A stretch of DNA of 64,000 bases, taken from assembly GCA_023511455.1 (NCBI GenBank), contig JAIMBJ010000011.1:13637-77636 (forward strand), given 5' to 3'. Below the pieces are notes generated by a model. The model was not told the origin of the DNA. It was given only the letters and a program-made list of their open reading frames with translations, and searched no databases. The DNA comes from Bacillota bacterium (GTDB lineage Bacteria; Armatimonadota; HRBIN16). The translations under genes and the position numbers were made by a program. This document shows, piece after piece, positions 5,398 to 53,183 of the stretch; within the stretch, counting starts at the first letter, position 1; every line of letters starts with the position of its first letter.

Positions 5398-5940
5398 ATG
5401 TGGGAGACGGACAGACAGGTTCTGGTACTGAACAATGACTACGAGCCGCTGAATGTGTGCAACGTGCGGCGCGCGCTGGTGCTCGTGCTGCTGGGCAAAG
5501 CAGAGGTGCTGCACGTGGATGGCGTTCGTCTGCGCACCGTGGACAGAGTGATTCAGGTGCCGTCGGTGGTGAAGCTGCGCTATCACGTCAAGCGCCCCCT
5601 GCCTGAACTCAAGCTCACGCGGCGCACCATCTTCGCCCGCGACGACTACACCTGCCAGTACTGCGGCTACCGCGGCAAAGATTTGACGGTAGACCACGTG
5701 GTGCCCAAGCGCCTGGGCGGTAGCGACGACTGGGAAAACCTGGTGACCTGTTGCCGTAAGTGCAACCTGAAAAAGGGAGATAAACCCCTGCATCAGACGG
5801 GCATGACGCTGTTGCGCCAGCCCCGCCGCCCACGCTACGTGCCCTACATCAGCCTGAGTAAGTATATCGAGGGCGCAAAGAACGAGGTGTGGCGCAACTA
5901 CCTGCCTTTCTTCAGCGACGTGACCCCTTCACAGGACTGA
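5398..5940 (+). CDS. HNH endonuclease family protein (about 180 aa)
   Basis: HNH motif DHVVPKRLGGSDDWENLVTCCRKCNLKKGDK. An RBS (agggaa) lies 6 nt upstream of the ATG. Confidence 0.8.
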   Translation: MWETDRQVLVLNNDYEPLNVCNVRRALVLVLLGKAEVLHVDGVRLRTVDRVIQVPSVVKLRYHVKRPLPELKLTRRTIFARDDYTCQYCGYRGKDLTVDHVVPKRLGGSDDWENLVTCCRKCNLKKGDKPLHQTGMTLLRQPRRPRYVPYISLSKYIEGAKNEVWRNYLPFFSDVTPSQD

Positions 5941-6118
5941 CCTCGGCAAGGGGGTCGGTCCCTCGGCACCTCTTCTGCTAAATCGTCCAGCACCAGTACG
6001 CAAACGGCATCTACTTGTTTCAACCGTACTTCGTTGGTGAGGAACGCATCGCACCGATGTGTAGCATGGTTAACGTCACCATCTGGCATCACCCGCATCC
6101 TTATACCGCATTTCCGCA

Positions 6119-13146: not shown

Positions 13147-15612
13147 CTACTCGCCCACGCGCCACTCCAGAATGCCAGCAGAGTATCCTGCCCTGAGCTT
13201 GACCTCTAACCGCAACGCCGCAGCCACTACCGGCTCGAACTCGACGCGGTTGAAAGCGTCCTTACGTGTTTCTTCGCTGTGAGTGACCTTCACCGGATAC
13301 CACTGCTGACCGTCGGACCACAGCACGCGCCACGACTCCGGAAGACGGCACTGTCCGCCAGCCGGCTCGTCGTCAAACCAGTAGACCTCACACCACGAGA
13401 TGCGGCGCGGGCGGGCAAACACGTATTGCACCCACTCGGTGGTGCCCGTGTGGTCCCACCAGGTGAAGCGCGGGATGCTCCAATCTGCAGACGAAGAGGG
13501 CAAAAGCCCATCGTTCAGCGCGAGCACCGTGTCGGCGTGCCAGCAGTGCGAAGCCTCTGCAATGACCGTATTCGTCTCCTGCCAGACGTTGGCGTTCGGG
13601 CCCTCGCCTATCTGTGGGAAAGCCGACACACGCAATCGGGCACATCCCATGGGAATCAGGATGATGTCCTCCACAGGCTCGTCCGAGCGCACCGGTGATT
13701 CCTGTACCTCTCCAATCAGCCCGTTCGCCTCCAGACGCCACTGCGGGATGCGTTTGCCTTTCGCCCTGAGCAGGACGGGCGCGTTCTCTGGAGTGAAGGG
13801 TTGTGCGGCAACCTTGTCTGGCTTCCTGACGACCTCAAACGACATCTGCGGGTTGCTCAAGTCCACTATCAGCCCGTAGTTCCACGCGGTGGTGGGGAAA
13901 ACTTCGTACGCGGGGAAGCGGTCGGTGCCCCCGTAGCGTTCCCATCGTTCGCCTATCCGCAGGGAGAAAGCCAGCGGGCCGAGGTAAACGGAGACAGTGT
14001 TACGGTTTTTGTCCCATACTTTAACAAATAGTGGCATAGTCAGGGTTAGCCTGACACGGTCACCGTCGCGCCATTCGCGCTGCAGGAGTATCCAGCCTTT
14101 CGCCGGTGAGGGTAGTCGCTGTGACTGTCCGTTCACCTCCACGCGTGGCGTTTCGCACCAGCCGGGCACGCGCAGGGTGAGTGGGAACCGCACCGATTTT
14201 GGCGTGCGGATGGTCAACTGCACCTCCTCTCCGAAGGGGTAATCGGTCTCTTCCACGATTTCCACCGTCGTGCCATCGGCAACTTTCGCCTCCACCCGGC
14301 AGGGCGCGTAAAAGACAGCTGCCAGCCCGTTGCCCGGCGTTGCCATCCACAGGTGCTCCGCGAAGTAGGGCCATCCGAACGCCACGTTATGCTGGCAACA
14401 GCGGTAGTCGTAGGGGTTATAGGAAAGCATGTCGCCGCCGTTTTGCAGCAGTGGCGCTTTGCTCTGACGGTCGAGTTGCACCATGTTGGGCGCGGTGAGG
14501 TAGTGCAGCCCCTTCAGGTCGGGCGTCATGGCAGCGGGCAGTGAGTTGAAGGCGACTTCCTCGCACCGGTCTGCCCACTTGCCGTCACCGGTGATGCGCG
14601 TGAGCAGCTGGTGGCTGTACATCATCTCCACCATCGAACAGGTCTCCGCCGCCTGCCGGGGACCGGTGAAGCCAGGGCGAGCGTTCTCATCCGCACCGAA
14701 CATCCCGCCTGGCACCTGCCCATAGATGCCCATGACCGTATCGTACACGCGCTCGGTAGCCCGCAGGTAGCGAATATCACCGGTTTGCTGGTAGTACTGG
14801 GCGGGTTCGCGGAAGCCCTGGCAGATATTCACCCCGTGCCAGGTGGGGATGTCACCCACCCAATCCGCGGTGCGTTCATGGGTAACCCGCGCGGCGTCCA
14901 GCATCCACTTCTCCCCCGTGAGGTTGTACAGCCAGTGGATGGTGTCCAGGTTGTCGCCGCCGCGCACTTTCTGCCAGCTGCCGGGCAGGAACTTCTCCAG
15001 CGGCACGGTCATCTGCCAGCGGAAGTATTTGAGCATGAAGGGGATGACGCGCGGGTCGCCGGTGGCTTCGTAATGGGTGCGCAGCGCGTACAGCGCAATC
15101 ATGTTCGGCCAGAGGTCCATCGCGGCGCGGTTGCTTTCTGGACCGAAGTAGCCGTCTTCGCGCTGGCTGGCGAGAATGGCGTCGATCCACCGTCTTGCTT
15201 CAGTGATTATGCGCTGGTCTCCCAGCACGTAGCCCAGTGAGGTAAACCCCTTGAGCCAGTAGGGGAGCTCCTCCCAGCCATTTTCACCTTGCCCCTGCGG
15301 GTTTGCCCACGCACTGCCCTCAAACCGGCACCATGAGCTGATTTCGGTCAAATGCCCGGTGAAGCCGTCCGCCATCAGTTCCAGTTGATGACGGAGCCAG
15401 CCCTCGGGTCGGATAGAGCCGGCAGGCAGTTTGATGAGCGGGCTGGGCAGCAGCGGCGCCCGGTTGCCCGCGTAATGACGGTTCGCCGGCGAGGTTGGAA
15501 GAGTGATGGTTATCTTCATCGTTGCATTCCTCTCCGCAGAGTATTGTTGTGCATCAACTACCGTTATCACCCATAGCGTAGCGACCAGAAGGGACGCTTG
15601 TTTCATTCCCAC
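13147..15612 (-). CDS. Secreted six-hairpin glycoside hydrolase, DUF1680/GH127-like (candidate beta-L-arabinofuranosidase) with a C-terminal discoidin-like domain
   Basis: Signal peptide. An (alpha/alpha)6-type region is present. An E-T-C motif (AETCSMVEMMY) and a Cys-Cys pair (YDYRCCQHNVAFGWPYF) are reminiscent of the GH127 Zn/catalytic site. The 150-aa C-terminal beta-sandwich is F5/8-like. Confidence 0.5.
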   Translation of the reverse strand: MGMKQASLLVATLWVITVVDAQQYSAERNATMKITITLPTSPANRHYAGNRAPLLPSPLIKLPAGSIRPEGWLRHQLELMADGFTGHLTEISSWCRFEGSAWANPQGQGENGWEELPYWLKGFTSLGYVLGDQRIITEARRWIDAILASQREDGYFGPESNRAAMDLWPNMIALYALRTHYEATGDPRVIPFMLKYFRWQMTVPLEKFLPGSWQKVRGGDNLDTIHWLYNLTGEKWMLDAARVTHERTADWVGDIPTWHGVNICQGFREPAQYYQQTGDIRYLRATERVYDTVMGIYGQVPGGMFGADENARPGFTGPRQAAETCSMVEMMYSHQLLTRITGDGKWADRCEEVAFNSLPAAMTPDLKGLHYLTAPNMVQLDRQSKAPLLQNGGDMLSYNPYDYRCCQHNVAFGWPYFAEHLWMATPGNGLAAVFYAPCRVEAKVADGTTVEIVEETDYPFGEEVQLTIRTPKSVRFPLTLRVPGWCETPRVEVNGQSQRLPSPAKGWILLQREWRDGDRVRLTLTMPLFVKVWDKNRNTVSVYLGPLAFSLRIGERWERYGGTDRFPAYEVFPTTAWNYGLIVDLSNPQMSFEVVRKPDKVAAQPFTPENAPVLLRAKGKRIPQWRLEANGLIGEVQESPVRSDEPVEDIILIPMGCARLRVSAFPQIGEGPNANVWQETNTVIAEASHCWHADTVLALNDGLLPSSSADWSIPRFTWWDHTGTTEWVQYVFARPRRISWCEVYWFDDEPAGGQCRLPESWRVLWSDGQQWYPVKVTHSEETRKDAFNRVEFEPVVAAALRLEVKLRAGYSAGILEWRVGE

Positions 15613-15697
15613 CCCCTGTTTTTTGTTGGAGTGATAGGATGACAGTTTATGTTTTGTGACACTTTAAATCCCCCCAACGTCTTTTCATCTGCCTCAA

Positions 15698-16489
15698 TCA
15701 CACCAGGAATCTGCTGCGCAGCTCGTAATGCTCCACACAGTTGAAGTAAAACTCTGCCACCAGCTCCACTGAGCGAAAGTAGAACTTGCTTGATATCGTG
15801 GCAAACGGCTCATGGCTGATGCGTTGTTCGAAAAGATGGCGTCGGTTCTCATGTGCCACCAGCACCAAACGAGTTTCGAATTCCTTGAGGGCGAACATCT
15901 TGAGCATCGAGCGTTCGAAATCTGTGGTGGTTTCTACCTCAAAAACATACTTTGGAAAGGGATGCGCAGTGCGCGAAAACCAGATGACATCACACCGCCC
16001 CACGCGCTCCTTCACATCTTGATAGGTGAAATCCGGCACCTGCCGCAGCACACACAGGTCACCAAGACGTTTACCATCGAACAGCCTGTTGACGTCAGGA
16101 GTGTAGGTGTTGTAATCCAGGTAGTTACCGATTTCAATCAACATACCCTCGATGGTAGCGTGCAGGTCAGGTCTGTTCCCGATATAGTCCCGATAAGAAC
16201 GCTTATCGAGAGCGTACTGATAGGCAGAAGACGGCTCTGCTTTTTGGGCTTCTGGCAGCGCATATACTCCCAAACCCACTTTGACGAATCTGCCAGCCTT
16301 TGCTTCCCGATATAGAACACCTCGTAATGTTTTACGCCAGTCGCCGGAGGGCATCCGCTCTCGATGTAGCGGTGCGCGTTCATACAGATGCGTTAGGGAA
16401 GCTATCCCGTTATTCTCCCGCATGATTTGCTCGATGAGGTCACCCCATCTCATATCACGTATCCCAAAACCGAGTGAGTCCCTATCCAA
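15698..16489 (-). CDS. Hypothetical protein with an N-terminal wHTH-like region and a C-terminal PD-(D/E)xK-like nuclease motif; lone gene of a low-GC insertion
   Basis: About 50% GC against a 63-66% background. AT-rich flanks. Putative motifs IEGMLIEIG ... CDVIWF ... YVFEVETTTD. It abuts a truncated gene remnant. No homolog is recognised with confidence. Confidence 0.6.
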   Translation of the reverse strand: MDRDSLGFGIRDMRWGDLIEQIMRENNGIASLTHLYERAPLHRERMPSGDWRKTLRGVLYREAKAGRFVKVGLGVYALPEAQKAEPSSAYQYALDKRSYRDYIGNRPDLHATIEGMLIEIGNYLDYNTYTPDVNRLFDGKRLGDLCVLRQVPDFTYQDVKERVGRCDVIWFSRTAHPFPKYVFEVETTTDFERSMLKMFALKEFETRLVLVAHENRRHLFEQRISHEPFATISSKFYFRSVELVAEFYFNCVEHYELRSRFLV

Positions 16490-16537
16490 TGAGATTCTGT
16501 TTTCGGTGCAACAAACGTCCTTGCCTTCACGTTCATG

Positions 16538-16791
16538 TTAACCCTCCTGCCGCTTACAGAAGGGGCGGACGCCCTGCAAAGGAGCCTGTTGATAAAGGCA
16601 TTCCGTCATCAGGTTCTGCCGTTGTCCGGTGAAGTCCCCACACACCTCCAGTCGCGTGCCTCTTCCTGCGCGCGAAGGATATGACGTCCGGCAATAACCA
16701 GATGCGCGTTCGTGTGTTCCAGCAGCAGCGCCGCAATCCACCTGCCGGTGCTGCCATAGCCTCCCAAAACGCCTATCTTCGGCGCAGCCAT
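16538..16791 (-). pseudogene. 5' remnant of a saccharopine-dehydrogenase-like NAD(P)-binding oxidoreductase gene, truncated at the low-GC insertion
   Basis: MAAPKIGVLGGYGSTGRWIAALLLEHTNAHLVIAGR is a Rossmann N-terminus with its own RBS (ggag). All three frames terminate within about 250 nt, just before the low-GC gene. Confidence 0.4.
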
Positions 16792-19700
16792 TGTACGCCG
16801 CTCAGGACTCCCGAAAGAGATTGCACCTGCACGGTCAGGTTCGCCCAGTCCCCCTTGCCGAAGTCGCCCCTGCCGATGAGCAGCGCAACCCAGCCGCCGT
16901 CCAGCGCGATGGTTTCGCCCGGTTTGACTTCCTGCTTGACATCCTGCCAAAGGTCGGGATGCTGTCCGCCGCCGGGGTCTTTCCAGAAGGTGCACTTCCA
17001 CTTTTCCGACTCGAAGGGCATTGAACCGTAGAACAGCCCTGCCTGCGTATGGCTCCATGCACCCGCGTTCAGGTAATAATTGGGCACTCCGGCAGGCTGG
17101 TCATCCCTGCCGTCGCCGTGCAGCTGGCTCTGGGCATAGTGGTACACTGCCTCCACGCGCAGTGGAATTGCGCTCAGGTTCTGCAGGCGACGCATCCGCA
17201 CCAGCAGCATCGGCTGCAGCAGGTCTTCACGCACCTCCATTTCCCATTCCACGCGGTAGCTTTGCGGACGTGCCTGCTGTGCCGCAAAAACCCCCGTCTG
17301 CTGGTTCACTTCGGTAATCGCGGAGCCATCGCGGTGGGTCAGCCAGCCGCGCAGGTAGTGTCCAAACGGTGTCCCCACCAGTTGCACCCCTTCGTGGCGA
17401 TTGGGGGGTACCCATTGCATCTGCGACAGGCTCTGCTGCACCAGCACGGTGTAGCTGCCTATCCGCTGCCCCTGCCAGTAGATGGTGCGTATCGGTGCCC
17501 GCTCGTTTCCAAATAGCAGGTCAAAGTTTGGGGATTTCAGCTGGAAATCGGCAGCGATGGTGTAGTCCTGCGGACGGCGTTCCTGGCGTGCCGGCACAAA
17601 CAGCACCAGCCCACTCCACGTCCTGCCCGGTGGCACGTTCTGCACATACAGCCATAGCCGTTGCCGGAAGAGCGGCTCGATGTGGAACCGCACCGCCTTG
17701 CCGTCCATGCTCACACACCGCCACTCGCCAGATTGTTGTTGCGCCATTGGATGTTCGGGCAGGTCGATCCCTATCCAGCCAGAGAACGGCTGTCGATTCG
17801 TATTCTGCAAATCCACCTGCCACGCCAGCGTAGCTTGTGAGGGAATGTTCCACCGCCGACGCGGGAATGCTGGCTTGCTAACTGGCGGTGGTTGCGGGCT
17901 TCGCGTGCGGTATCGCACGGATTCGGTGTGCATCGCGTATACCTTTGCCTGCAATTCTGTTGCAGTTTGTACGAGAATCTTATACGGTTCGCCCTGCTCG
18001 TTCACCAGCCCGTAGTTGCTGTCTTCGGGGAAGGTGCTGCTGATGCCCAGTGCAGGCTCATCCACCCACATGAAGAAGTTAGACCCCACCATAAACGGCA
18101 GGTGAAACACGGCAGACTGGAAAATGCGGAAGCACTCCGCCCGCTGTTGCTGCGTATCCACCCGCATACCCGCGCCGTGTTTGCAGGGAAGGCCACTGTC
18201 CAGCGCGGGGAAGCTCCATTCCGTAATCATCAGGGGGCGTCTGGACTGCCGATAGTATTCGCGCAGCCGTTCTTCCCAGTCCAGCACACACCCTGCACGC
18301 AGGTCGATGCGGGGATAGGTGTTGATGCTCACCACGTCGCAGTACTTCCCTGCGATGTCCAGAATGGGTGGCGCCTCCCCTGCGAAGCGGCAGCCCAGAA
18401 CCAGATGGTTGGGGTCGTGCTTGCGGATGGCTTCCGCGCAGGTTCGGAAATAGAGCTCCGCCGCCAGACGGGTGAAGGCGATGCCGTCCTCCTCTGCCGC
18501 CTTTGTGCGGATGGTGGGTGGTTGCTCGCCGTGCGCGATGTCGTCGAAATCGCGGATGCGGGCATCCCATGCGCGGTTGAATGCCTGCACATCGCCCCGA
18601 TAGCGGTCGCGCAGCAGCTGCGCCAGAGCCACGCGAGAGTCGTGCCCCCTTGCACGTTTCAACGCCTCGATGGCGATCCCCCACGGTTTGTAATCCTTGC
18701 CGAACCACTCCAGCTCGTTGTCCAGAAAATAGCCGATAAGCCAGGGGTCGTCTCGCAGGGGAGCGCAACGCTGGTAGGCTATCCAGTCACACCATTGCTG
18801 CCATCGCGGAGAGAATACGTTGGGAAACCCCGTCCAGTGAACCTGTTTCACCAAATCGTCAATAGCGGCAAAGCCCTGTCCCATGCCCAGAATGTTATCG
18901 ATGTATGCCAGCCCCTGATGGCGGAGGTAGGACGAATGGTTCGCGGCAAGGATATTGAAGTTCCAGCTTTTCAGACGCTGCAGGGTTTCCTGTGCCCACG
19001 CCTGCTCGGAACCGTGTCGCCTCTTCATATTCTCATGGTAAGGGGCGTAACCCAGCTTCTCGCACCAGTGCACAAAGTAGCTGGTGTGGTCGGTACCGAG
19101 TGCGAAGAAGAGCCGCCCCTCGGGGTCAATGAACCACCAGACGCCGTCTATCTCCTCCACGCGGAAAAAGCCGGTAGCCTGGCGTACCTTCCTGCCCACG
19201 TGCGCCACCTTGTAGGCTGGTCGGGGCTTCTGTTCGGGACGTGGTGGCTCGGCAGGTACGGTGTTGCGCGTCTCTATTTGCGAGAAGGTGGCGTCGAAAG
19301 CGTTGCAGGTCAACCCCAGATAGCCCGCACGCACCGCCTTCGGATTATCCAGTGCCCATTCGTATGCCCAGCAGAGCGTATTTTGCGCGTCGTAGATTTC
19401 TCCGCGGATAGTTTGCGCGTTCCAAATCAGGCGCAGGCAGTACGGCTTTCCGTACTCCCAGCTCCAGTCGGGAAGGCTGAAGCTCTGCTTAACGGTGAGA
19501 CGGGTAGCGGGTTCATTGCCCGCCAGCCAGGTGCCACCGTACAGCTCGTGCAATTCGGCGGTGTGGCGATACTGCAGGTTTTCGGGAGCTTCCACCAGAT
19601 TCAGCCGCCAGTGGTGGCGGTCATCCTGCCACAGGGTGATGCCCACCGTTTTCCAGTAGGTCGGGTTAGTGACAGCGCGATGCACCACCACCGTCGCGTT

Positions 19701-19826
19701 CAGTTCGCCCGCCTGCGAGAAGCTGTCCTTCAGCAACAGCGCACCCTGGGGCATCTCCGCGCGCACCGTGCCGTCATCCTGCACCGTCCATCCAAACGGT
19801 ATTATCTGCCACCGTGTTTGAGGCAT
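16773..19826 (-). CDS. Large (1017-aa) glycoside hydrolase with a clan GH-A TIM-barrel core and extra N- and C-terminal domains
   Basis: Candidate acid/base NE motif (FLDNELEWFG) and nucleophile motif (LMITEWSF). No signal peptide. The GH family is not assignable by eye. Confidence 0.7.
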   Translation of the reverse strand: MPQTRWQIIPFGWTVQDDGTVRAEMPQGALLLKDSFSQAGELNATVVVHRAVTNPTYWKTVGITLWQDDRHHWRLNLVEAPENLQYRHTAELHELYGGTWLAGNEPATRLTVKQSFSLPDWSWEYGKPYCLRLIWNAQTIRGEIYDAQNTLCWAYEWALDNPKAVRAGYLGLTCNAFDATFSQIETRNTVPAEPPRPEQKPRPAYKVAHVGRKVRQATGFFRVEEIDGVWWFIDPEGRLFFALGTDHTSYFVHWCEKLGYAPYHENMKRRHGSEQAWAQETLQRLKSWNFNILAANHSSYLRHQGLAYIDNILGMGQGFAAIDDLVKQVHWTGFPNVFSPRWQQWCDWIAYQRCAPLRDDPWLIGYFLDNELEWFGKDYKPWGIAIEALKRARGHDSRVALAQLLRDRYRGDVQAFNRAWDARIRDFDDIAHGEQPPTIRTKAAEEDGIAFTRLAAELYFRTCAEAIRKHDPNHLVLGCRFAGEAPPILDIAGKYCDVVSINTYPRIDLRAGCVLDWEERLREYYRQSRRPLMITEWSFPALDSGLPCKHGAGMRVDTQQQRAECFRIFQSAVFHLPFMVGSNFFMWVDEPALGISSTFPEDSNYGLVNEQGEPYKILVQTATELQAKVYAMHTESVRYRTRSPQPPPVSKPAFPRRRWNIPSQATLAWQVDLQNTNRQPFSGWIGIDLPEHPMAQQQSGEWRCVSMDGKAVRFHIEPLFRQRLWLYVQNVPPGRTWSGLVLFVPARQERRPQDYTIAADFQLKSPNFDLLFGNERAPIRTIYWQGQRIGSYTVLVQQSLSQMQWVPPNRHEGVQLVGTPFGHYLRGWLTHRDGSAITEVNQQTGVFAAQQARPQSYRVEWEMEVREDLLQPMLLVRMRRLQNLSAIPLRVEAVYHYAQSQLHGDGRDDQPAGVPNYYLNAGAWSHTQAGLFYGSMPFESEKWKCTFWKDPGGGQHPDLWQDVKQEVKPGETIALDGGWVALLIGRGDFGKGDWANLTVQVQSLSGVLSGVQWLRRR

Positions 19827-49451: not shown

Positions 49452-50855
49452 CTAGCCGTTCTCACCCGGTCGGGGAAATATCTTGTCGGGGTTGCACAGA
49501 CCCTGTGGGTCAAAGGCGTCGTGCACCAGCTGCATCGCTTTCAGGTCGGTGTCGCTGTAGAGCAGGCGCATATAGTGTGCCTTTTCCACGCCCACGCCAT
49601 GCTCGCCCGTGATGCTGCCGCCCATCTGCACGCACAACCGAACGATGGCGTCGTTCGCGGCACGCACACGGCTCACTTCTTCGGCGTCCCGTTCGTCAAA
49701 AAGCACGATGGGATGCAGGCTGCCGTCCCCCGCGTGGAACACGTTGGCGATGCGCACGCCATATTCCTGTCCGATTTCCAGAATGCGACGTAAGACCTGC
49801 GGCAGCTTGCTGCGCGGAACCACCGCGTCCTGCGTGACGTTGCTGGGAGCCAGCCTTCCCAGCGACCCTACGGCTTTCTTGCGTGCTGCCCACAGGCGGG
49901 TGCGCTCGTCCTCGTCACGCGCCAAACGTATCTCCTCGGCATGATTCGCGTTACAGATGTCCACCACGCGCTGCAGCTGCCTGTCCAGCCCCGCCTCCAG
50001 TCCATCTAACTCGATGACCAGCACTGCATCGGCGTCCTGGGGAAAGCCGAAGCGGAACGCCGCTTCTACCGCCTGCAACGTAGTGCGATCGATCATCTCC
50101 ATCGCGGCAGGCACCATCCCCGCCGCAATGATGTCGGAAACGGTCTGGCAGGCGTCCTCCAATCGGGGATACACTGCCAGCAGGGTGCGCCAGCCCTGAG
50201 GCAATGGGGTTAGCTTCGCAATCACGGTCGTCAGGATGCCCAGAGTGCCTTCGCTACCGGTGAATACCCCCACCAGGTCATAGCCGAGCGGTTCCTCGTA
50301 CTTACCCCCCAGCCAGACCACCTCGCCGTCGGGCAGCACCACCTCTAAGCCGGTGATATGGTTGACCGTCACCCCGTACTTCAGCGTGTGCGGACCGCCG
50401 GCGTTCTCCGCCACGTTACCGCCGATGGTGCTGACGCCCTGACTGGACGGGTCGGGCGCATAGTGGTAGCCGTACGACTTCACCGCCTTCGTCAGGTCCA
50501 GGTTGATAACGCCTGCCTGTGCGGTGATGCGCCGGTTGGGGATGTCTACTTCCAGAATGCGAGTCATGCGGCTGGTGCAGATAACGACCCCACCCTTTAC
50601 CGCCAGCGCGCCGCCGGAGAGTCCCGTGCCAGCCCCGCGCGGCACAAAGGGAATACCCAGCCGGTTACAGAGTTGCACCACCTGCTGCACCTGCGCGGTC
50701 TCGGTAGGGAAGACCACCGCCTGCGGCAGGGCTTTCTCCATCGTGTAGGCGTCGCACTCGTAGACTAGCAGGTCAAACGGGTCGTGCAGTACCGCCTCCG
50801 CGCCCACGATGCGCTGCAGGTCTCGAATCAGACTGGAAGCCGTTTGTGTGAACAT
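49452..50855 (-). CDS. FAD-binding oxidoreductase (glycolate oxidase GlcD / D-lactate dehydrogenase family)
   Basis: FAD PCMH-type domain (PRGAGTGLSGGA) and a C-terminal FAD-oxidase domain. Confidence 0.85.
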   Translation of the reverse strand: MFTQTASSLIRDLQRIVGAEAVLHDPFDLLVYECDAYTMEKALPQAVVFPTETAQVQQVVQLCNRLGIPFVPRGAGTGLSGGALAVKGGVVICTSRMTRILEVDIPNRRITAQAGVINLDLTKAVKSYGYHYAPDPSSQGVSTIGGNVAENAGGPHTLKYGVTVNHITGLEVVLPDGEVVWLGGKYEEPLGYDLVGVFTGSEGTLGILTTVIAKLTPLPQGWRTLLAVYPRLEDACQTVSDIIAAGMVPAAMEMIDRTTLQAVEAAFRFGFPQDADAVLVIELDGLEAGLDRQLQRVVDICNANHAEEIRLARDEDERTRLWAARKKAVGSLGRLAPSNVTQDAVVPRSKLPQVLRRILEIGQEYGVRIANVFHAGDGSLHPIVLFDERDAEEVSRVRAANDAIVRLCVQMGGSITGEHGVGVEKAHYMRLLYSDTDLKAMQLVHDAFDPQGLCNPDKIFPRPGENG

Positions 50856-50868
50856 AGCAACACCTCAC

Positions 50869-51387
50869 TCATGGTTCCAGCTGTTTCAGTGCTTCGATCG
50901 CGCGATCCAACACCCTCTCCGAGACCCATAGTGAGGATTCTCTGGAGAGTCTAACAACCACTTCATGAGCTTCCTCTGGCTGAATAAAACCGAGTGAAGC
51001 ACATGCAATGACCACTCCAAGCGAGCCATGCACTTCTATGCCAAGTGTTTCAGCAAACAGCCGCGCTTTGGTGTCATCGGTAAGGAACCATGTACACTGC
51101 AGCTGTCTTGCCAAAGCAATCGCCATCGCTTCGCCGAGATGCAAATAACGTGCTGCTACCCATTTTTCGGCTTGTTTCGCATAATGACCCTCGGCTCGAA
51201 GCGTATCCACAGATATACCGATAGATGTTTCATCTGTTAATAAGCTGAACTCGTCAGCCACTTCTACAGGAATGCATATCCTGCCAAGGTAGTTGAGGAG
51301 GTGCTGCCTGCGTATCTGCCAGAGATGCAGTAACGGTCCGGTATTACAGACGATTAGCCTCGTTGCGTTTTGAGGTTCACTGCCCAT
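50869..51387 (-). CDS. DUF3368 / PIN-like domain protein (putative toxin)
   Basis: About 170 aa. Pairs with the upstream UPF0175-like gene. The locus GC content is about 50%. Confidence 0.65.
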   Translation of the reverse strand: MGSEPQNATRLIVCNTGPLLHLWQIRRQHLLNYLGRICIPVEVADEFSLLTDETSIGISVDTLRAEGHYAKQAEKWVAARYLHLGEAMAIALARQLQCTWFLTDDTKARLFAETLGIEVHGSLGVVIACASLGFIQPEEAHEVVVRLSRESSLWVSERVLDRAIEALKQLEP

Positions 51388-51563
51388 TCAATATCCTCGA
51401 GAAGGAACTGTTCCGCCAGCTGCCACAGTCTGCTGGACACGAACTCGCGAAGCGCTTCGCGAATAGCTTCCTCTTCACTAACGAACCAGCCCTCGTGAAC
51501 CATCTGCTCCAACGCATGGGCCAAGCTCTCGGGGAGCTGTACCTGTACCGTTTTCCCAGCCAT
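51354..51563 (-). CDS. UPF0175-family putative antitoxin
   Basis: MAGKTVQVQLPESLAHALEQMVHEGWFVSEEEAIREALREF. The start was set at the internal Met. The gene overlaps the downstream DUF3368 gene. Confidence 0.55.
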   Translation of the reverse strand: MAGKTVQVQLPESLAHALEQMVHEGWFVSEEEAIREALREFVSSRLWQLAEQFLLEDIEWAVNLKTQRG

Positions 51564-51713
51564 CGCTCTTAACCTCTCTTGCCGTCTTTCAGCATGATTG
51601 TACTCCGCTACAGCTTTGATATTCGGTGTGTGTCGAGCGCGTTCGGTAAACCGCCTCGTCGCGTGCCGCAAGGACTGAAACCCCAGCATAGCAAGACAGC
51701 TTCATTGTACCCT

Positions 51714-53183
51714 CTACTCCACCCGCACTTCCGTGTTGCCAAAGCGCAAGACGTCGCCCACCCGTATCAACTGCTGTTGCACAGGCTGCCCGTTAACGAA
51801 ACTGCCGTTGCGCGAGCCTTCGTCGATGAGAACCCACTGCGTGCCCTGCCTCTCCAGCCGCGCGTGCCGGCGGCTGACGGTGGGGTCGAAGTCGATCTGC
51901 AGGTCGCGCCCCGGCTCTCTGCCGATGGTCACCACGTTACCCTGCAGGGGCAACGCCATGCCCGCCTTTACACCATTCACTACCACCAGTCGGGTGGGAA
52001 CCGTTCCCATGGTGGGCTGCGCTGCGGTAGCCGTTAATGGTGGCGACGCCGTGGATGGCGACCCCGAAGGAGCCGCCGCCGGTGCCGATGCGCCCGGCAA
52101 CACGCTACACGCACATTGCCCTGTGACCGGGTCCTTGCGCTCACCGCAGTATGGGCACAGGTAGTCAGGCAGGGGCGGGCGCGAGGAGGGTTTCTCCACC
52201 CTCTCCATCGCCTCTCGCACCAGCGAGCGTGTGGCTTTTTCGAAAAACTGCAGGCGCATGGAGGCTATCTGGATGGTATCCCCATCCTTCAGCCATGCCT
52301 GCTGTACCGGCTGTCCGTTCAGCAGCGTACCCGCCGGCGAGCCGAGGTCTTCTATCAGGTGGCGGTTCTGTTGCTTGATGATGCGGGCGTGCTGCGGCGC
52401 GATTTGAGGGTCGCCAAAAAGGGGAATATCGGCGTACTCATCCCGTCCGATAATGCACACGGGTTTGTCCACCGGATACTCTCTGCCCTCGTTACGACCC
52501 ACCACCACGCGCACCCACGCCGCTTTCAACGCCTCCTGAACCAGCGCAATGAAGAACCCAATGCTCGCCCCCAGCACGGGGAAACCCACCGCCCGACCCG
52601 GCGCACCGACCTCTACCCGTTCACCACCCGACATCGCCAGATAGAGCGGGGCGAATATCAGCGTGAATATCTCGAACGCGATACCGCCCAACGCGCCTCC
52701 GATAGCGCCGCCTATCGTGCTGTGCCACCATCGCTTTGCGGAGCCGGTAGTCACCCCGACGGCTGCGCCGATTCCTGCGCCAAACAACATCCAGCCGACA
52801 GTACGGGGCACAATGTCGGTGATGAAGCCGAGGGGGGTGGGAGATGCGCCCATACCAGCGGGGTTCCCCAGAAGGTTACTCAAAGAGCCGTAAACGAGGT
52901 TGCCGATGAACAGGGCAATCGTCGTGCCGGGCAGACCGACGAACGCGGTAAGCAGCCCTTTGCGCACTGCCTGACCCGGCAGCCCGCGCGTGAGGCTGTC
53001 CACCATCCCCAGCGCGAAGCCGTAGCACCCGCCCAAGATGACCGCCAGCCAGATGGTCTCTCGCGCGGCTGCAACCGGGTTGAGCATCACCGCCTGATGG
53101 TCGATGAGCGGTTCCTGTATCGAGAACCCCACGACCCCGCCTGCGCCTCCCAGCAATAACCCCAGCAGCAGCCTGCCAATCAT
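51714..53183 (-). CDS. Polytopic membrane protein with two cytoplasmic FHA domains and a zinc ribbon
   Basis: Glycine-zipper TM helices, then FHA 1 (VCIIGRDEYADIPL...HARII), then CPYCGERKDPVTGQCACS, then FHA 2 (VVTIGREPGRDLQIDFDPTVSRRHARLE). Confidence 0.8.
   Translation of the reverse strand: MIGRLLLGLLLGGAGGVVGFSIQEPLIDHQAVMLNPVAAARETIWLAVILGGCYGFALGMVDSLTRGLPGQAVRKGLLTAFVGLPGTTIALFIGNLVYGSLSNLLGNPAGMGASPTPLGFITDIVPRTVGWMLFGAGIGAAVGVTTGSAKRWWHSTIGGAIGGALGGIAFEIFTLIFAPLYLAMSGGERVEVGAPGRAVGFPVLGASIGFFIALVQEALKAAWVRVVVGRNEGREYPVDKPVCIIGRDEYADIPLFGDPQIAPQHARIIKQQNRHLIEDLGSPAGTLLNGQPVQQAWLKDGDTIQIASMRLQFFEKATRSLVREAMERVEKPSSRPPLPDYLCPYCGERKDPVTGQCACSVLPGASAPAAAPSGSPSTASPPLTATAAQPTMGTVPTRLVVVNGVKAGMALPLQGNVVTIGREPGRDLQIDFDPTVSRRHARLERQGTQWVLIDEGSRNGSFVNGQPVQQQLIRVGDVLRFGNTEVRVE

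What the first reader, a model, noticed from the sequence alone, without database searches (positions are those of the whole stretch)
15613..16537. Low-GC single-gene insertion encoding a wHTH plus PD-(D/E)xK-like protein between two glycosidase genes, abutting a truncated oxidoreductase gene
The gene at 15698-16489 and its flanks have about 50% GC, against a 63-66% background, with AT-rich borders. The 263-aa product has a basic N-terminal region and a C-terminal IEGMLIEIG...CDVIWF...YVFEVETTTD pattern compatible with a restriction-endonuclease-like fold. It has no methyltransferase partner. Immediately next to it is the 5' remnant of a saccharopine-dehydrogenase-like gene, suggesting the insertion destroyed that gene. 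Solitary nuclease-like genes in such islands are candidates for new single-gene defence or addiction functions.
Basis: partly seen in the sequence, partly recalled or inferred. Interest (0 to 1): 0.65.

Follow-up and report, generated by a model that had tools for sequence, protein, structure and literature searches.

The report
Lone winged-helix nuclease gene, old insertion
A single low-GC gene was wedged long ago between two tightly linked sugar-metabolism genes of a hot-spring Armatimonadota bacterium; it encodes a strongly conserved but untested DNA-binding nuclease of the restriction-enzyme type with no methyltransferase partner, most likely a stand-alone defence nuclease.

Summary
Window 15613-16537 is the lowest-GC 925-bp stretch of the 64 kb (0.499 vs 0.604, z = -4.0). 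It carries one real gene, 15698-16453 on the minus strand (251 aa; the true start is the ATG at 16453, not the TTG at 16489).

The product has an N-terminal winged helix (HARE-HTH-like, sub-threshold) and a C-terminal Pfam PF27126 NmeDI_C domain. That domain has restriction-endonuclease-like topology and conserved E107, D155, E172-x-E174.

Related genomes show an empty site, with the Sdh stop 6 nt before the GH127 start. They also show the same gene in the same slot in either orientation.

The claim that the insertion destroyed the oxidoreductase gene is wrong. A relative (L048) has the same co-directional insertion next to an intact gene. In the window, both ends of the decayed gene lie on one side of the insert.

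The gene is old, vertically inherited and under stronger purifying selection (dN/dS about 0.05) than its neighbours. The 64 kb holds no methyltransferase.

In distant relatives the gene sits in a cassette of methyltransferase, this gene, a small acidic ORF and a second nuclease-like gene. There the methyltransferase is usually truncated.

Best reading: a stand-alone, self-sparing (probably modification-dependent) restriction nuclease. Function is untested.

The parts
15698..16453 (-). Gene X: 251-aa protein plus stop codon (15698-15700); start ATG at 16451-16453
   Evidence: ORF. 58 homologues of about 250 aa align from this Met. The exact protein is on record as MCL6475019.1, 'hypothetical protein'. 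dN/dS is 0.045-0.073 within the clade.
16454..16489 (-). 12-codon extension to an upstream TTG in the mechanical ORF call; probably not translated
   Evidence: No homologue has it. In relatives the alignment upstream of the ATG is spacer.
16256..16453 (-). Residues 1-66: winged-helix DNA-binding domain (invariant D38 W39 K41 T42 R44; G60 G62 V63)
   Evidence: AF2 model with pLDDT 93.5, H-E-H-H-E-E. Foldseek matches to the Z-alpha domain 1j75 (prob 0.99, TMt 0.83) and other winged helices. Relatives P0065 and P0059 match Pfam HARE-HTH below threshold (E = 8e-4 and 7e-3) over the full model.
16178..16255 (-). Residues 67-92: short helical linker
   Evidence: AF2 secondary structure H67-71, H77-82, H87-92.
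15701..16177 (-). Residues 93-251: NmeDI_C domain, predicted restriction-endonuclease-like (PD-(D/E)xK) nuclease. Codons: E107 at 16133-16135, D155 at 15989-15991, E172 at 15938-15940, E174 at 15932-15934
   Evidence: Precomputed PF27126 NmeDI_C on the cluster representative P0001 and 55 other homologues. Domain model has pLDDT 89.9 with alpha-beta-beta-beta-alpha-beta order. D155 and E172 are at least 90% conserved over 150 diverse representatives. BFVD top hits are enriched in restriction, MmcB, RecB, VRR-NUC and ERCC4 nucleases.
16454..16537 (-). 84-bp spacer between the Sdh pseudogene stop and the X start
   Evidence: No sigma-70-like promoter found. No similarity to the upstream spacers of other X copies.
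15607..15697 (-). 91-bp AT-rich spacer between the X stop and the likely GH127 start (ATG 15606, signal peptide)
   Evidence: No terminator-like site.
16538..16792 (-). Decayed Sdh-like gene. 5' end (aa 1-47) at 16651-16792; weakly matching internal piece (about aa 294-321) at 16580-16666; weakly matching 3' end (aa 374-384 plus stop) at 16538-16585
   Evidence: tblastn against the intact HR16 Sdh: E = 4e-16 for the 5' end, E = 0.095 and 0.04 for the other two pieces. DNA alignment with L048, whose Sdh is intact. L001, L045 and L047 carry a larger deletion.

Best explanation
Gene X encodes a two-domain, stand-alone restriction-type endonuclease. The N-terminal winged helix (HARE-HTH-like) finds the DNA target. 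The C-terminal NmeDI_C domain, a PD-(D/E)xK-type fold with E107, D155 and E172-x-E174, cuts nearby. This parallels R.NmeDI, after which the Pfam domain is named and which cuts 12/7 nt to either side of its site. X has persisted without any linked methyltransferase, under strong purifying selection, in many lineages. It must therefore spare unmodified host DNA. The most likely way is that it attacks only modified or otherwise foreign-marked DNA, which is Type IV-like behaviour. The gene arrived by horizontal transfer as a 0.9-kb promoter-poor cassette. It landed in the 6-nt gap between the Sdh and GH127 genes of a P1017-Sdh-GH127 operon, and the lineage has kept it by vertical descent since. 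Shown here: the insertion, its age, the selection on it, the domain architecture, the absence of a methyltransferase, and the family's context elsewhere. Inferred: nuclease activity, the nature of the target, and a defence role.
For: Architecture and fold:
- AF2 models have pLDDT 93.5 and 89.9.
- Winged-helix matches; sub-threshold HARE-HTH in relatives.
- PF27126 NmeDI_C on 56 of 58 homologues.
- Conserved acidic residues on helix 1, strand 2 and strand 3.
- Nuclease-rich structural hit lists.
- In 150 diverse relatives the same C-domain is fused to HARE-HTH (26), OGG-like (8) and EVE (5) domains. This is the combinatorial pattern of restriction enzymes that read DNA marks.
- PGAP calls a 427-aa NmeDI_C protein on Listeria plasmids 'type II restriction endonuclease'.

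Stand-alone state:
- No methyltransferase in the 64 kb.
- None next to X in the group I contexts examined, where X lies among housekeeping genes. L042 is the one exception.

Selection and descent:
- dN/dS is 0.045-0.06, lower than GH127 (0.09-0.13) and the 1017-aa gene (0.15-0.16).
- X dS is at or above flank dS, which indicates vertical descent.

Horizontal origin:
- Empty site in L018 and L019.
- A Dehalococcoidia copy is as close to the Armatimonadota copies as those are to each other.

Precedent: winged-helix nuclease fusions without neighbouring methyltransferases proved to be Type IV enzymes, and adjacent methyltransferases were frameshifted (PMC11037411, sections 15 and 17). Here the methyltransferase upstream of X is truncated in more than 10 lineages.
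Against: - No activity data exist for any member with this architecture.
- The third catalytic position is Glu rather than Lys.
- The window protein itself does not hit HARE-HTH, nor any PADLOC, NCBIfam or PHROG model.
- An apparently intact methyltransferase lies 5 bp upstream of X in L090 and nearby in L042. That fits a classical Type II partner at least there.
- R.NmeDI itself is a classical Type II enzyme with a cognate methyltransferase (PMC2095814).
- The window neighbourhood is carbohydrate metabolism, not a defence island.
Confidence: 0.45

Rival explanations
1. X is a homing-like selfish nuclease cassette. It is a mobile, promoter-poor gene that inserts between tightly linked genes of an operon. 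In other lineages it spreads by recombination into methyltransferase/nuclease (M-R') operons and inactivates them. The window copy would be such an element, fixed and possibly domesticated.
For: - The same 6-nt gap was hit at least three times in related genomes: X in two orientations and an M-R' cassette.
- X alleles in the two orientations are 66-70% identical, while host genes are 76-85% identical.
- In group II loci, X dS is several-fold below that of both flanks (0.035 against 0.25 and 0.53; 0.14 against 0.65), while the truncated M fragment shows dN/dS of 0.03-0.16.
- The type of M is discordant with the X phylogeny.
- The L071-type M fragment is an M22::M90 chimera.
- M is eroded from its X-proximal end, and so is R'.
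- No promoter-like site lies upstream of X.
Against: - In the window clade X has co-diverged with its flanks (dS of 0.3-1.0, at or above flank dS). It is under stronger constraint than they are, contrary to the expected decay of a fixed homing gene.
- Both orientations occur, which homing by flank homology does not produce.
- There are no terminal repeats or target duplications.
- No copy was found on phage or viral contigs.
- Nothing shows that X cuts the empty sites.
Confidence: 0.17
2. X is an orphan classical Type II restriction endonuclease. Its protecting methyltransferase is encoded elsewhere in the genome, or its recognition site has been purged from the host chromosome.
For: - The domain is named after a true Type II enzyme.
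- L090 has an M-then-X operon with a 5-bp gap.
- Separated R-M systems and full-length restriction genes next to dead methyltransferase genes are documented (PMC3488263).
- Only 64 kb of this genome could be searched.
Against: - This would require an unlinked methyltransferase, or site avoidance, independently in the different group I contexts across two phyla.
- SKYG40 (L021) and NZ741 (L042) have 98% identical X and 99% identical flanks, yet only one carries the M cassette.
- In L022 and L042 the M gene pairs with a different small nuclease-like gene (R', 10-bp gap), not with X.
Confidence: 0.15
3. X is a domesticated host protein with a non-defence role. It could be a DNA repair or recombination nuclease, or a winged-helix regulator that uses the nuclease-like domain for dimerisation.
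For: Constraint is very strong and descent is vertical. X sits among housekeeping genes in most contexts, for example next to gyrA in L103 and next to UvrD and the CCA-adding enzyme in L108. No defence neighbours lie near it in the window.
Against: Distribution is patchy, with empty sites in close relatives. There is inter-phylum transfer. X lies in a restriction-modification type cassette in group II. The invariant acidic residues argue for catalysis.
Confidence: 0.15

Closest known systems
R.NmeDI of Neisseria meningitidis (Type II restriction endonuclease, 351 aa; PMC2095814), namesake of Pfam PF27126 NmeDI_C
   Same: Shares the C-terminal domain family, by precomputed Pfam assignment. The enzyme cuts at a distance from its site (12/7 on both sides). 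That fits a separate recognition module plus a cleavage module.
   Different: NmeDI has a different, longer N-terminal region, a cognate overlapping methyltransferase gene, and a known site (RCCGGY). X is 251 aa, has a winged helix instead, and has no methyltransferase. The NmeDI sequence itself was not aligned here.
Winged-helix fusion endonucleases characterised as Type IV, N6-methyladenine-dependent enzymes (DpnI, FcyTI, HhiV4I and others; PMC11037411)
   Same: A winged-helix reader joined to a nuclease domain. They are stand-alone genes with few neighbouring methyltransferases, and adjacent methyltransferases are found inactivated.
   Different: Domain order and families differ. Those enzymes are PD-(D/E)XK-wH, wH-HNH, wH-GIY-YIG or PLD-wH with DpnI-type winged helices. 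X is wH-NmeDI_C with a HARE-HTH-like helix. No modification dependence has been tested for X.
Solitary restriction endonuclease genes, including full-length restriction genes next to truncated methyltransferase genes (Ershova et al. 2012, PMC3488263)
   Same: A restriction-type gene without a functional linked methyltransferase. It is orthologous to copies that sit behind a methyltransferase gene in other genomes.
   Different: That survey suspected many such genes to be unexpressed or decaying. X is under strong purifying selection across a clade.
Free-standing homing endonuclease genes of phages (established knowledge; seg and mob genes of T4)
   Same: A single nuclease gene wedged between conserved genes, presence/absence polymorphism at one site, and in group II a lower dS than the flanks.
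   Different: X is chromosomal and absent from viral collections, occurs in both orientations, and has been maintained by selection long after fixation.

Membership tests
Pfam PF27126 NmeDI_C | Significant match to the family profile | tested here: met
   The model is absent from the local Pfam copy (no hit). The precomputed assignment is carried by P0001, the representative of the 90% cluster that contains the exact window protein, and by 55 other homologues.
PD-(D/E)xK restriction-endonuclease-like fold | Alpha-beta-beta-beta-alpha-beta core, with an acidic residue at the start of strand 2 and (D/E)xK on strand 3 | tested here: inconclusive
   Predicted element order fits: H97-111 (E107), E115-117, E156-159 (D155), E167-173 (E172-V-E174), H179-187 (K185), E195-200. 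The third position is Glu, not Lys. K168 and K185 are conserved nearby.
PD-(D/E)xK restriction-endonuclease-like fold | Significant structural similarity to a solved member | tested here: inconclusive
Type II restriction-modification system (NmeDI-like) | Cognate DNA methyltransferase gene linked to the endonuclease gene | tested here: not met
   No MTase model hit, no N4/N6 or C5 motif ORF, and no M22 or M90 homologue in the 64-kb window. The rest of the genome could not be searched.
Type II restriction-modification system (NmeDI-like) | Sequence-specific cleavage of unmethylated DNA | not testable with these tools
   Needs enzyme assays.
Type IV (modification-dependent) winged-helix fusion endonucleases | Stand-alone gene: DNA-reader domain fused to a nuclease, with no protecting methyltransferase | tested here: met
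   Architecture. Solitary in the group I contexts examined.
Type IV (modification-dependent) winged-helix fusion endonucleases | Cleavage depends on a DNA modification | not testable with these tools
   Indirect only: truncated methyltransferases next to X, and EVE and HARE-HTH fusions of the C-domain.
Pfam PF05066 HARE-HTH | Match above the gathering score (25.9 bits) | tested here: not met
   No hit for the window protein at E <= 1. Relatives P0065 score 20.2 bits and P0059 17.2 bits, full-length but below cut-off. The domain therefore resembles HARE-HTH but is not filed as a member.
Known anti-phage defence systems (PADLOC-DB 2.0) | Match to a system protein model | tested here: not met
   0 families at E <= 10.
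Free-standing homing endonuclease gene | Presence/absence at one site among relatives, with more recent ancestry than the flanks and decay after fixation | tested here: not met
   Presence/absence: yes. In the window clade X dS is at or above flank dS, and dN/dS is 0.05. In group II loci the dS contrast is present.

The most novel reading that the evidence does not exclude
The X block (X, with its small acidic partner ORF in group II) is a homing-like element that specifically invades restriction-modification operons at the methyltransferase/nuclease junction. It truncates the methyltransferase and spreads by recombination between diverged R-M loci. It would be an 'anti-R-M' selfish nuclease, and the window holds a copy that escaped to an unrelated operon and was domesticated.
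Probability: 0.12. Interest if true: 0.8.

Novelty: new variant of a known kind. Interest (0 to 1): 0.5.

Why it matters
Solitary restriction-type nucleases should be toxic, yet this one is among the most tightly constrained genes at its locus and has no methyltransferase. Showing what it recognises would add a new reader/cleavage combination (HARE-HTH-like winged helix plus NmeDI_C) to the stand-alone restriction enzymes. It would also give a first function to a family of at least 775 clusters at 50% identity, currently annotated only as hypothetical. The family-wide pattern is an intact X beside eroded methyltransferase genes, with signs that the X block moved between R-M operons. This makes conflict between nucleases and methyltransferases directly testable. 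The enzymes come from thermophiles and cut at a distance, which could make them useful reagents.

Tried and rejected
- Local Pfam, PADLOC, NCBIfam and PHROGs scans of the protein gave nothing.
- Sequence search of PDB with the protein and with the family profile gave only chance hits.
- Foldseek against PDB gave nothing significant, with either the whole model or the C-domain model.
- Terminal inverted or direct repeats and target duplications around the cassette were sought in five loci; only chance-level short repeats appeared.
- Simple in-situ inversion of the HR16-type arrangement is rejected. The two X alleles are too divergent (66-70%) for such close hosts, and their upstream spacers share no similarity.
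- 'Insertion split the Sdh gene' is rejected.
- A split methyltransferase with its C-terminal half elsewhere in the group II loci was sought and not found.
- Phage origin: no relatives in IMG/VR or INPHARED.
- No promoter- or terminator-like sites and no Rfam match in 14500-17500.
- The 125-aa ORF upstream of X in L108 is not a methyltransferase remnant.

Full report
**1. What is in the window**

The stretch 15613-16537 has GC 0.499, against 0.604 for the window. It is the lowest 925-bp stretch of the 64 kb (z = -4.0).

It holds one credible gene on the minus strand. The mechanical ORF runs 15698-16489 from a TTG. All 58 database homologues are about 250 aa and align from the Met at 16453. I therefore take 15698-16453 (251 aa) as the gene and call it X.

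X has GC3 of 0.58, against 0.74-0.76 in both neighbours.

- Downstream neighbour: a GH127 beta-L-arabinofuranosidase-like gene. Comparison with relatives puts its start at the ATG at 15606, with a signal peptide.
- Upstream neighbour: a 1017-aa protein with weak GH42/GH2 similarity, 16773-19826.
- Between that gene and X lie the remains of a saccharopine-dehydrogenase-like gene (Sdh).

The exact protein is on record as MCL6475019.1, 'hypothetical protein'. No Rfam family, promoter-like site or terminator-like site was found around it.

**2. The protein**

Local Pfam, PADLOC, NCBIfam and PHROGs scans give nothing. The large protein database carries a precomputed Pfam assignment, PF27126 'NmeDI_C'. 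It is present on 56 of 58 homologues, including the representative of the cluster that contains the window protein.

An AlphaFold model built on 54 homologues is confident (pLDDT 93.5, pTM 0.92). It shows three parts:

- Residues 1-66 form a winged helix. Foldseek matches Z-alpha 1j75 (prob 0.99) and other winged helices.
- Residues 67-92 form a short helical linker.
- Residues 93-251 form a C-terminal alpha/beta domain.

Two relatives match Pfam HARE-HTH over its full length but below threshold (E = 8e-4 and 7e-3). I describe the winged helix as HARE-HTH-like, not as a member.

The C-domain has the element order of the restriction-endonuclease-like fold. Conserved residues sit where catalytic residues are expected:

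- E107 on the first helix;
- D155 at the start of the second core strand;
- E172-V-E174 on the third strand;
- K168 and K185 nearby.

D155 and E172 stay at least 90% conserved over 150 representatives that are 20-45% identical to X.

Structure searches are only suggestive.

- Nothing is significant in PDB: BsaWI E = 0.02, and Nt.BspD6I, Mus81 and Can2 lower down.
- In BFVD the top of the list (best E = 1.8e-3) is dominated by restriction, MmcB-like, RecB-family, VRR-NUC and ERCC4 nucleases.

The nuclease fold is therefore well supported by topology and conservation but not proven.

**3. The wider family**

A profile search of 1.84 billion representatives finds 775 clusters (336 below 1e-10). 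There are two architectures:

- proteins of about 250 aa like X;
- proteins of 300-420 aa in which only the C-domain matches, at the C-terminus.

In those longer proteins the N-terminal parts are HARE-HTH (26 of 150), OGG-like (8) or EVE (5) domains. Combining one cleavage domain with interchangeable DNA or DNA-mark readers is typical of restriction enzymes that cut away from their site.

R.NmeDI, after which the Pfam domain is named, is such an enzyme. It cuts 12/7 nt on both sides of RCCGGY, acts as a tetramer, and has an overlapping methyltransferase gene (PMC2095814).

A 427-aa NmeDI_C protein on Listeria and Enterococcus plasmids is annotated 'type II restriction endonuclease'. No relatives were found in viral or phage collections.

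**4. Is it an insertion, and did it destroy Sdh?**

I fetched loci encoding relatives of the 1017-aa protein from one genome per species and mapped the four genes.

| Group | Loci | 1017-aa identity to window | Arrangement |
|---|---|---|---|
| Empty site | L018, L019 (Chthonomonadia) | 72% | 1017-aa gene, Sdh, GH127; Sdh stop only 6 nt before the GH127 start |
| Convergent X | HR16, SKYG40, L043 | 76-79% | X lies in that gap, convergent with an intact 385-aa Sdh |
| Window clade | window, L001, L015, L045-L048 | 84-97% | X lies in the same gap, co-directional with the operon |

Within the window clade, L048 has an intact Sdh followed after 82 bp by X (91% identical to the window copy). The co-directional insertion therefore coexisted with a working Sdh.

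In the window, Sdh is reduced to three pieces, all upstream of X:

- aa 1-47 (strong match, E = 4e-16);
- a piece around aa 294-321 (weak match, E = 0.095);
- the last 11 codons plus the stop (weak match, E = 0.04).

L001, L045 and L047 have a single larger deletion. Sdh was lost by later internal deletions, not by the insertion. The cassette has no flanking repeats.

**5. Two acquisitions, long residence, strong constraint**

X of the window clade and X of the HR16 clade are 66-70% identical. The hosts' GH127 is 85% identical and the 1017-aa protein 76-79%. Within the HR16 clade, X is 81-84% identical at comparable host divergence.

A Dehalococcoidia copy (L008) is as close to either clade (65-71%) as the two are to each other. 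The opposite orientation and unrelated upstream spacers add to this. Together they point to two separate arrivals, or a cassette replacement, at the same gap, and to transfer between phyla.

The same gap holds a methyltransferase plus small nuclease-like gene (M-R') in L022. In L042 it holds both M-R' and X. The gap is a hotspot.

Within the window clade X has co-diverged with its flanks.

| Comparison | X dS | GH127 dS | 1017-aa gene dS |
|---|---|---|---|
| window vs L001 | 0.31 | 0.20 | 0.09 |
| window vs L048 | 1.0 | 0.68 | 0.62 |

dN/dS is 0.045-0.06 for X, 0.09-0.13 for GH127 and 0.15-0.16 for the 1017-aa gene. X is thus an old, vertically inherited and strongly constrained gene.

Its low GC is a family trait. 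X is 4-15 points below the flanks in all 20 loci checked, in hosts from 31% to 66% GC.

**6. Methyltransferase partner**

None is detectable in the 64 kb, by PADLOC models, motif scan or tblastn with the family-associated methyltransferases. None lies next to X in the different 'group I' contexts, which are thermophilic Armatimonadota and Chloroflexota. L042 is the exception.

**7. What the more distant relatives show**

In 'group II' (46-57% identical to X, mostly sediment metagenomes) the commonest neighbour is a DNA methyltransferase. The cassette has four parts:

- an alpha-class N4/N6 methyltransferase with an SPPY motif, of two types about 23% identical to each other (M22 and M90);
- X;
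- a 63-aa acidic ORF (p63) 14 bp downstream of X;
- a protein of 160-174 aa (R') with an E...D...QxK pattern.

Only L090 has an apparently full M. Elsewhere M is cut from its X-proximal end at aa 85, 120, 133, 150, 181-193, 306 or 330, or it carries an internal deletion with a degenerate SPPY. R' is sometimes cut from its X-proximal end or carries a stop.

In L022, M and R' are adjacent (10-bp gap) without X. M and R' therefore look like the original pair, with X-p63 as a later insert.

Four observations suggest that the X block has moved between such operons:

- The M type is discordant with the X tree.
- The L071-type M fragment is a chimera of M22 (aa 56-163) and M90 (about aa 284-312).
- X dS is several-fold lower than that of both flanks: 0.035 against 0.25 and 0.53, and 0.14 against 0.65.
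- The M fragment shows dN/dS of 0.03-0.16, as if it evolved as part of an intact gene until recently.

These numbers rest on few loci and short sequences. I report them as an unexplained pattern, not a conclusion.

**8. Interpretation**

The best-supported reading (confidence about 0.45) is that X is a stand-alone restriction-type nuclease that spares unmodified host DNA. It is most likely modification-dependent.

The closest characterised analogues are the winged-helix fusion endonucleases shown to be Type IV enzymes. For these, the rarity of neighbouring methyltransferases and the inactivation of adjacent ones were noted (PMC11037411). Full-length restriction genes beside dead methyltransferase genes are also on record (PMC3488263).

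The rivals are as follows.

- **Homing-like selfish cassette (0.17).** Attractive for group II, but contradicted in the window clade by long-term constraint.
- **Orphan Type II enzyme with a distant methyltransferase or site avoidance (0.15).**
- **Domesticated non-defence role (0.15).**

**9. Verdict**

- Right: a single-gene insertion, a winged helix plus a nuclease-like domain, no methyltransferase, and no known defence model.
- Wrong: that the insertion destroyed Sdh, and, by implication, that the low GC marks a recent arrival.

X is a new variant of a known kind: a stand-alone reader-nuclease fusion, or solitary restriction gene. The window gene itself is of moderate interest. The family-level association with eroded methyltransferases is the part most worth following up.

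Noticed in passing
window 16538-16792: The Sdh-like gene is a pseudogene with two internal deletions. Close relatives show a decay series: intact in L048, two deletions in the window, one larger deletion in L001, L045 and L047.
   Followed up: yes
L022 5195-7115; L042 3701-5713: The same gap after the Sdh stop holds a 461-aa N4/N6 methyltransferase plus a 174-aa nuclease-like gene (R'). In L022 there is no X; in L042 X is convergent. L020 has glycosyltransferase genes there instead, so the gap is a hotspot for restriction-type cassettes.
   Followed up: partly
L065-L101 (metagenome loci), e.g. L071 5574-7403, L090 213-2898: Group II relatives carry a four-part cassette: methyltransferase, X, 63-aa acidic ORF, R'. 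The methyltransferase is truncated from its X-proximal end at many different points. One form is an M22::M90 chimera. X dS is several-fold lower than the dS of the flanks.
   Followed up: partly
L014 8765-8956; L103-L107 about 5765-5960: A conserved ORF of about 63 aa, acidic, lies 14 bp downstream of X in group II. It is kept even where the methyltransferase and R' are absent. It may be an inhibitor or partner of X. It is absent from the window clade.
   Followed up: partly
window 50818-51742: This is the second-lowest GC stretch of the window (0.519). It has two small overlapping minus-strand ORFs (172 and 111 aa) that look like a toxin-antitoxin pair by eye.
   Followed up: no
window 5398-5937 (+) and unidentified ORFs: A 180-aa ORF resembles an HNH nuclease. 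PADLOC scans of all window ORFs gave single hits to mad3 (1e-37), mad2, mad8, PDC-S70, PtuB and REase_II models. I did not establish which ORFs carry these hits.
   Followed up: no
window 15520-15612: The GH127 gene most likely starts at the ATG at 15606 with a signal peptide (MKQASLLVATLWV...). The peptide is conserved in HR16 and in the empty-site genomes. The start is neither the GTG at 15612 nor the internal ATG at 15519.
   Followed up: partly
L048 about 2085-2100; L042 about 5770-5790: A 12-nt identity (GCGGTAGGATTC) links the Sdh-stop junction of L048 with a site 20 nt after the Sdh stop of L042. It may be a footprint of cassette exchange, or chance.
   Followed up: no
record MCL6475019.1 vs L015-L022: The exact window protein is deposited under a 'Firmicutes bacterium' MAG. 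All syntenic relatives of the locus are Armatimonadota or Chthonomonadia, so the bin is probably mislabelled.
   Followed up: no
L103 911-6628: In one genome X sits directly after gyrA. A Dam-like methyltransferase plus a SacI-like endonuclease are inserted between gyrB and gyrA, and a PemK toxin pair lies downstream of X.
   Followed up: no
L021 14876-15040: A perfect 78-nt duplicate around a run of N lies inside the 5' end of X. It is a scaffolding artefact, not a biological repeat.
   Followed up: no
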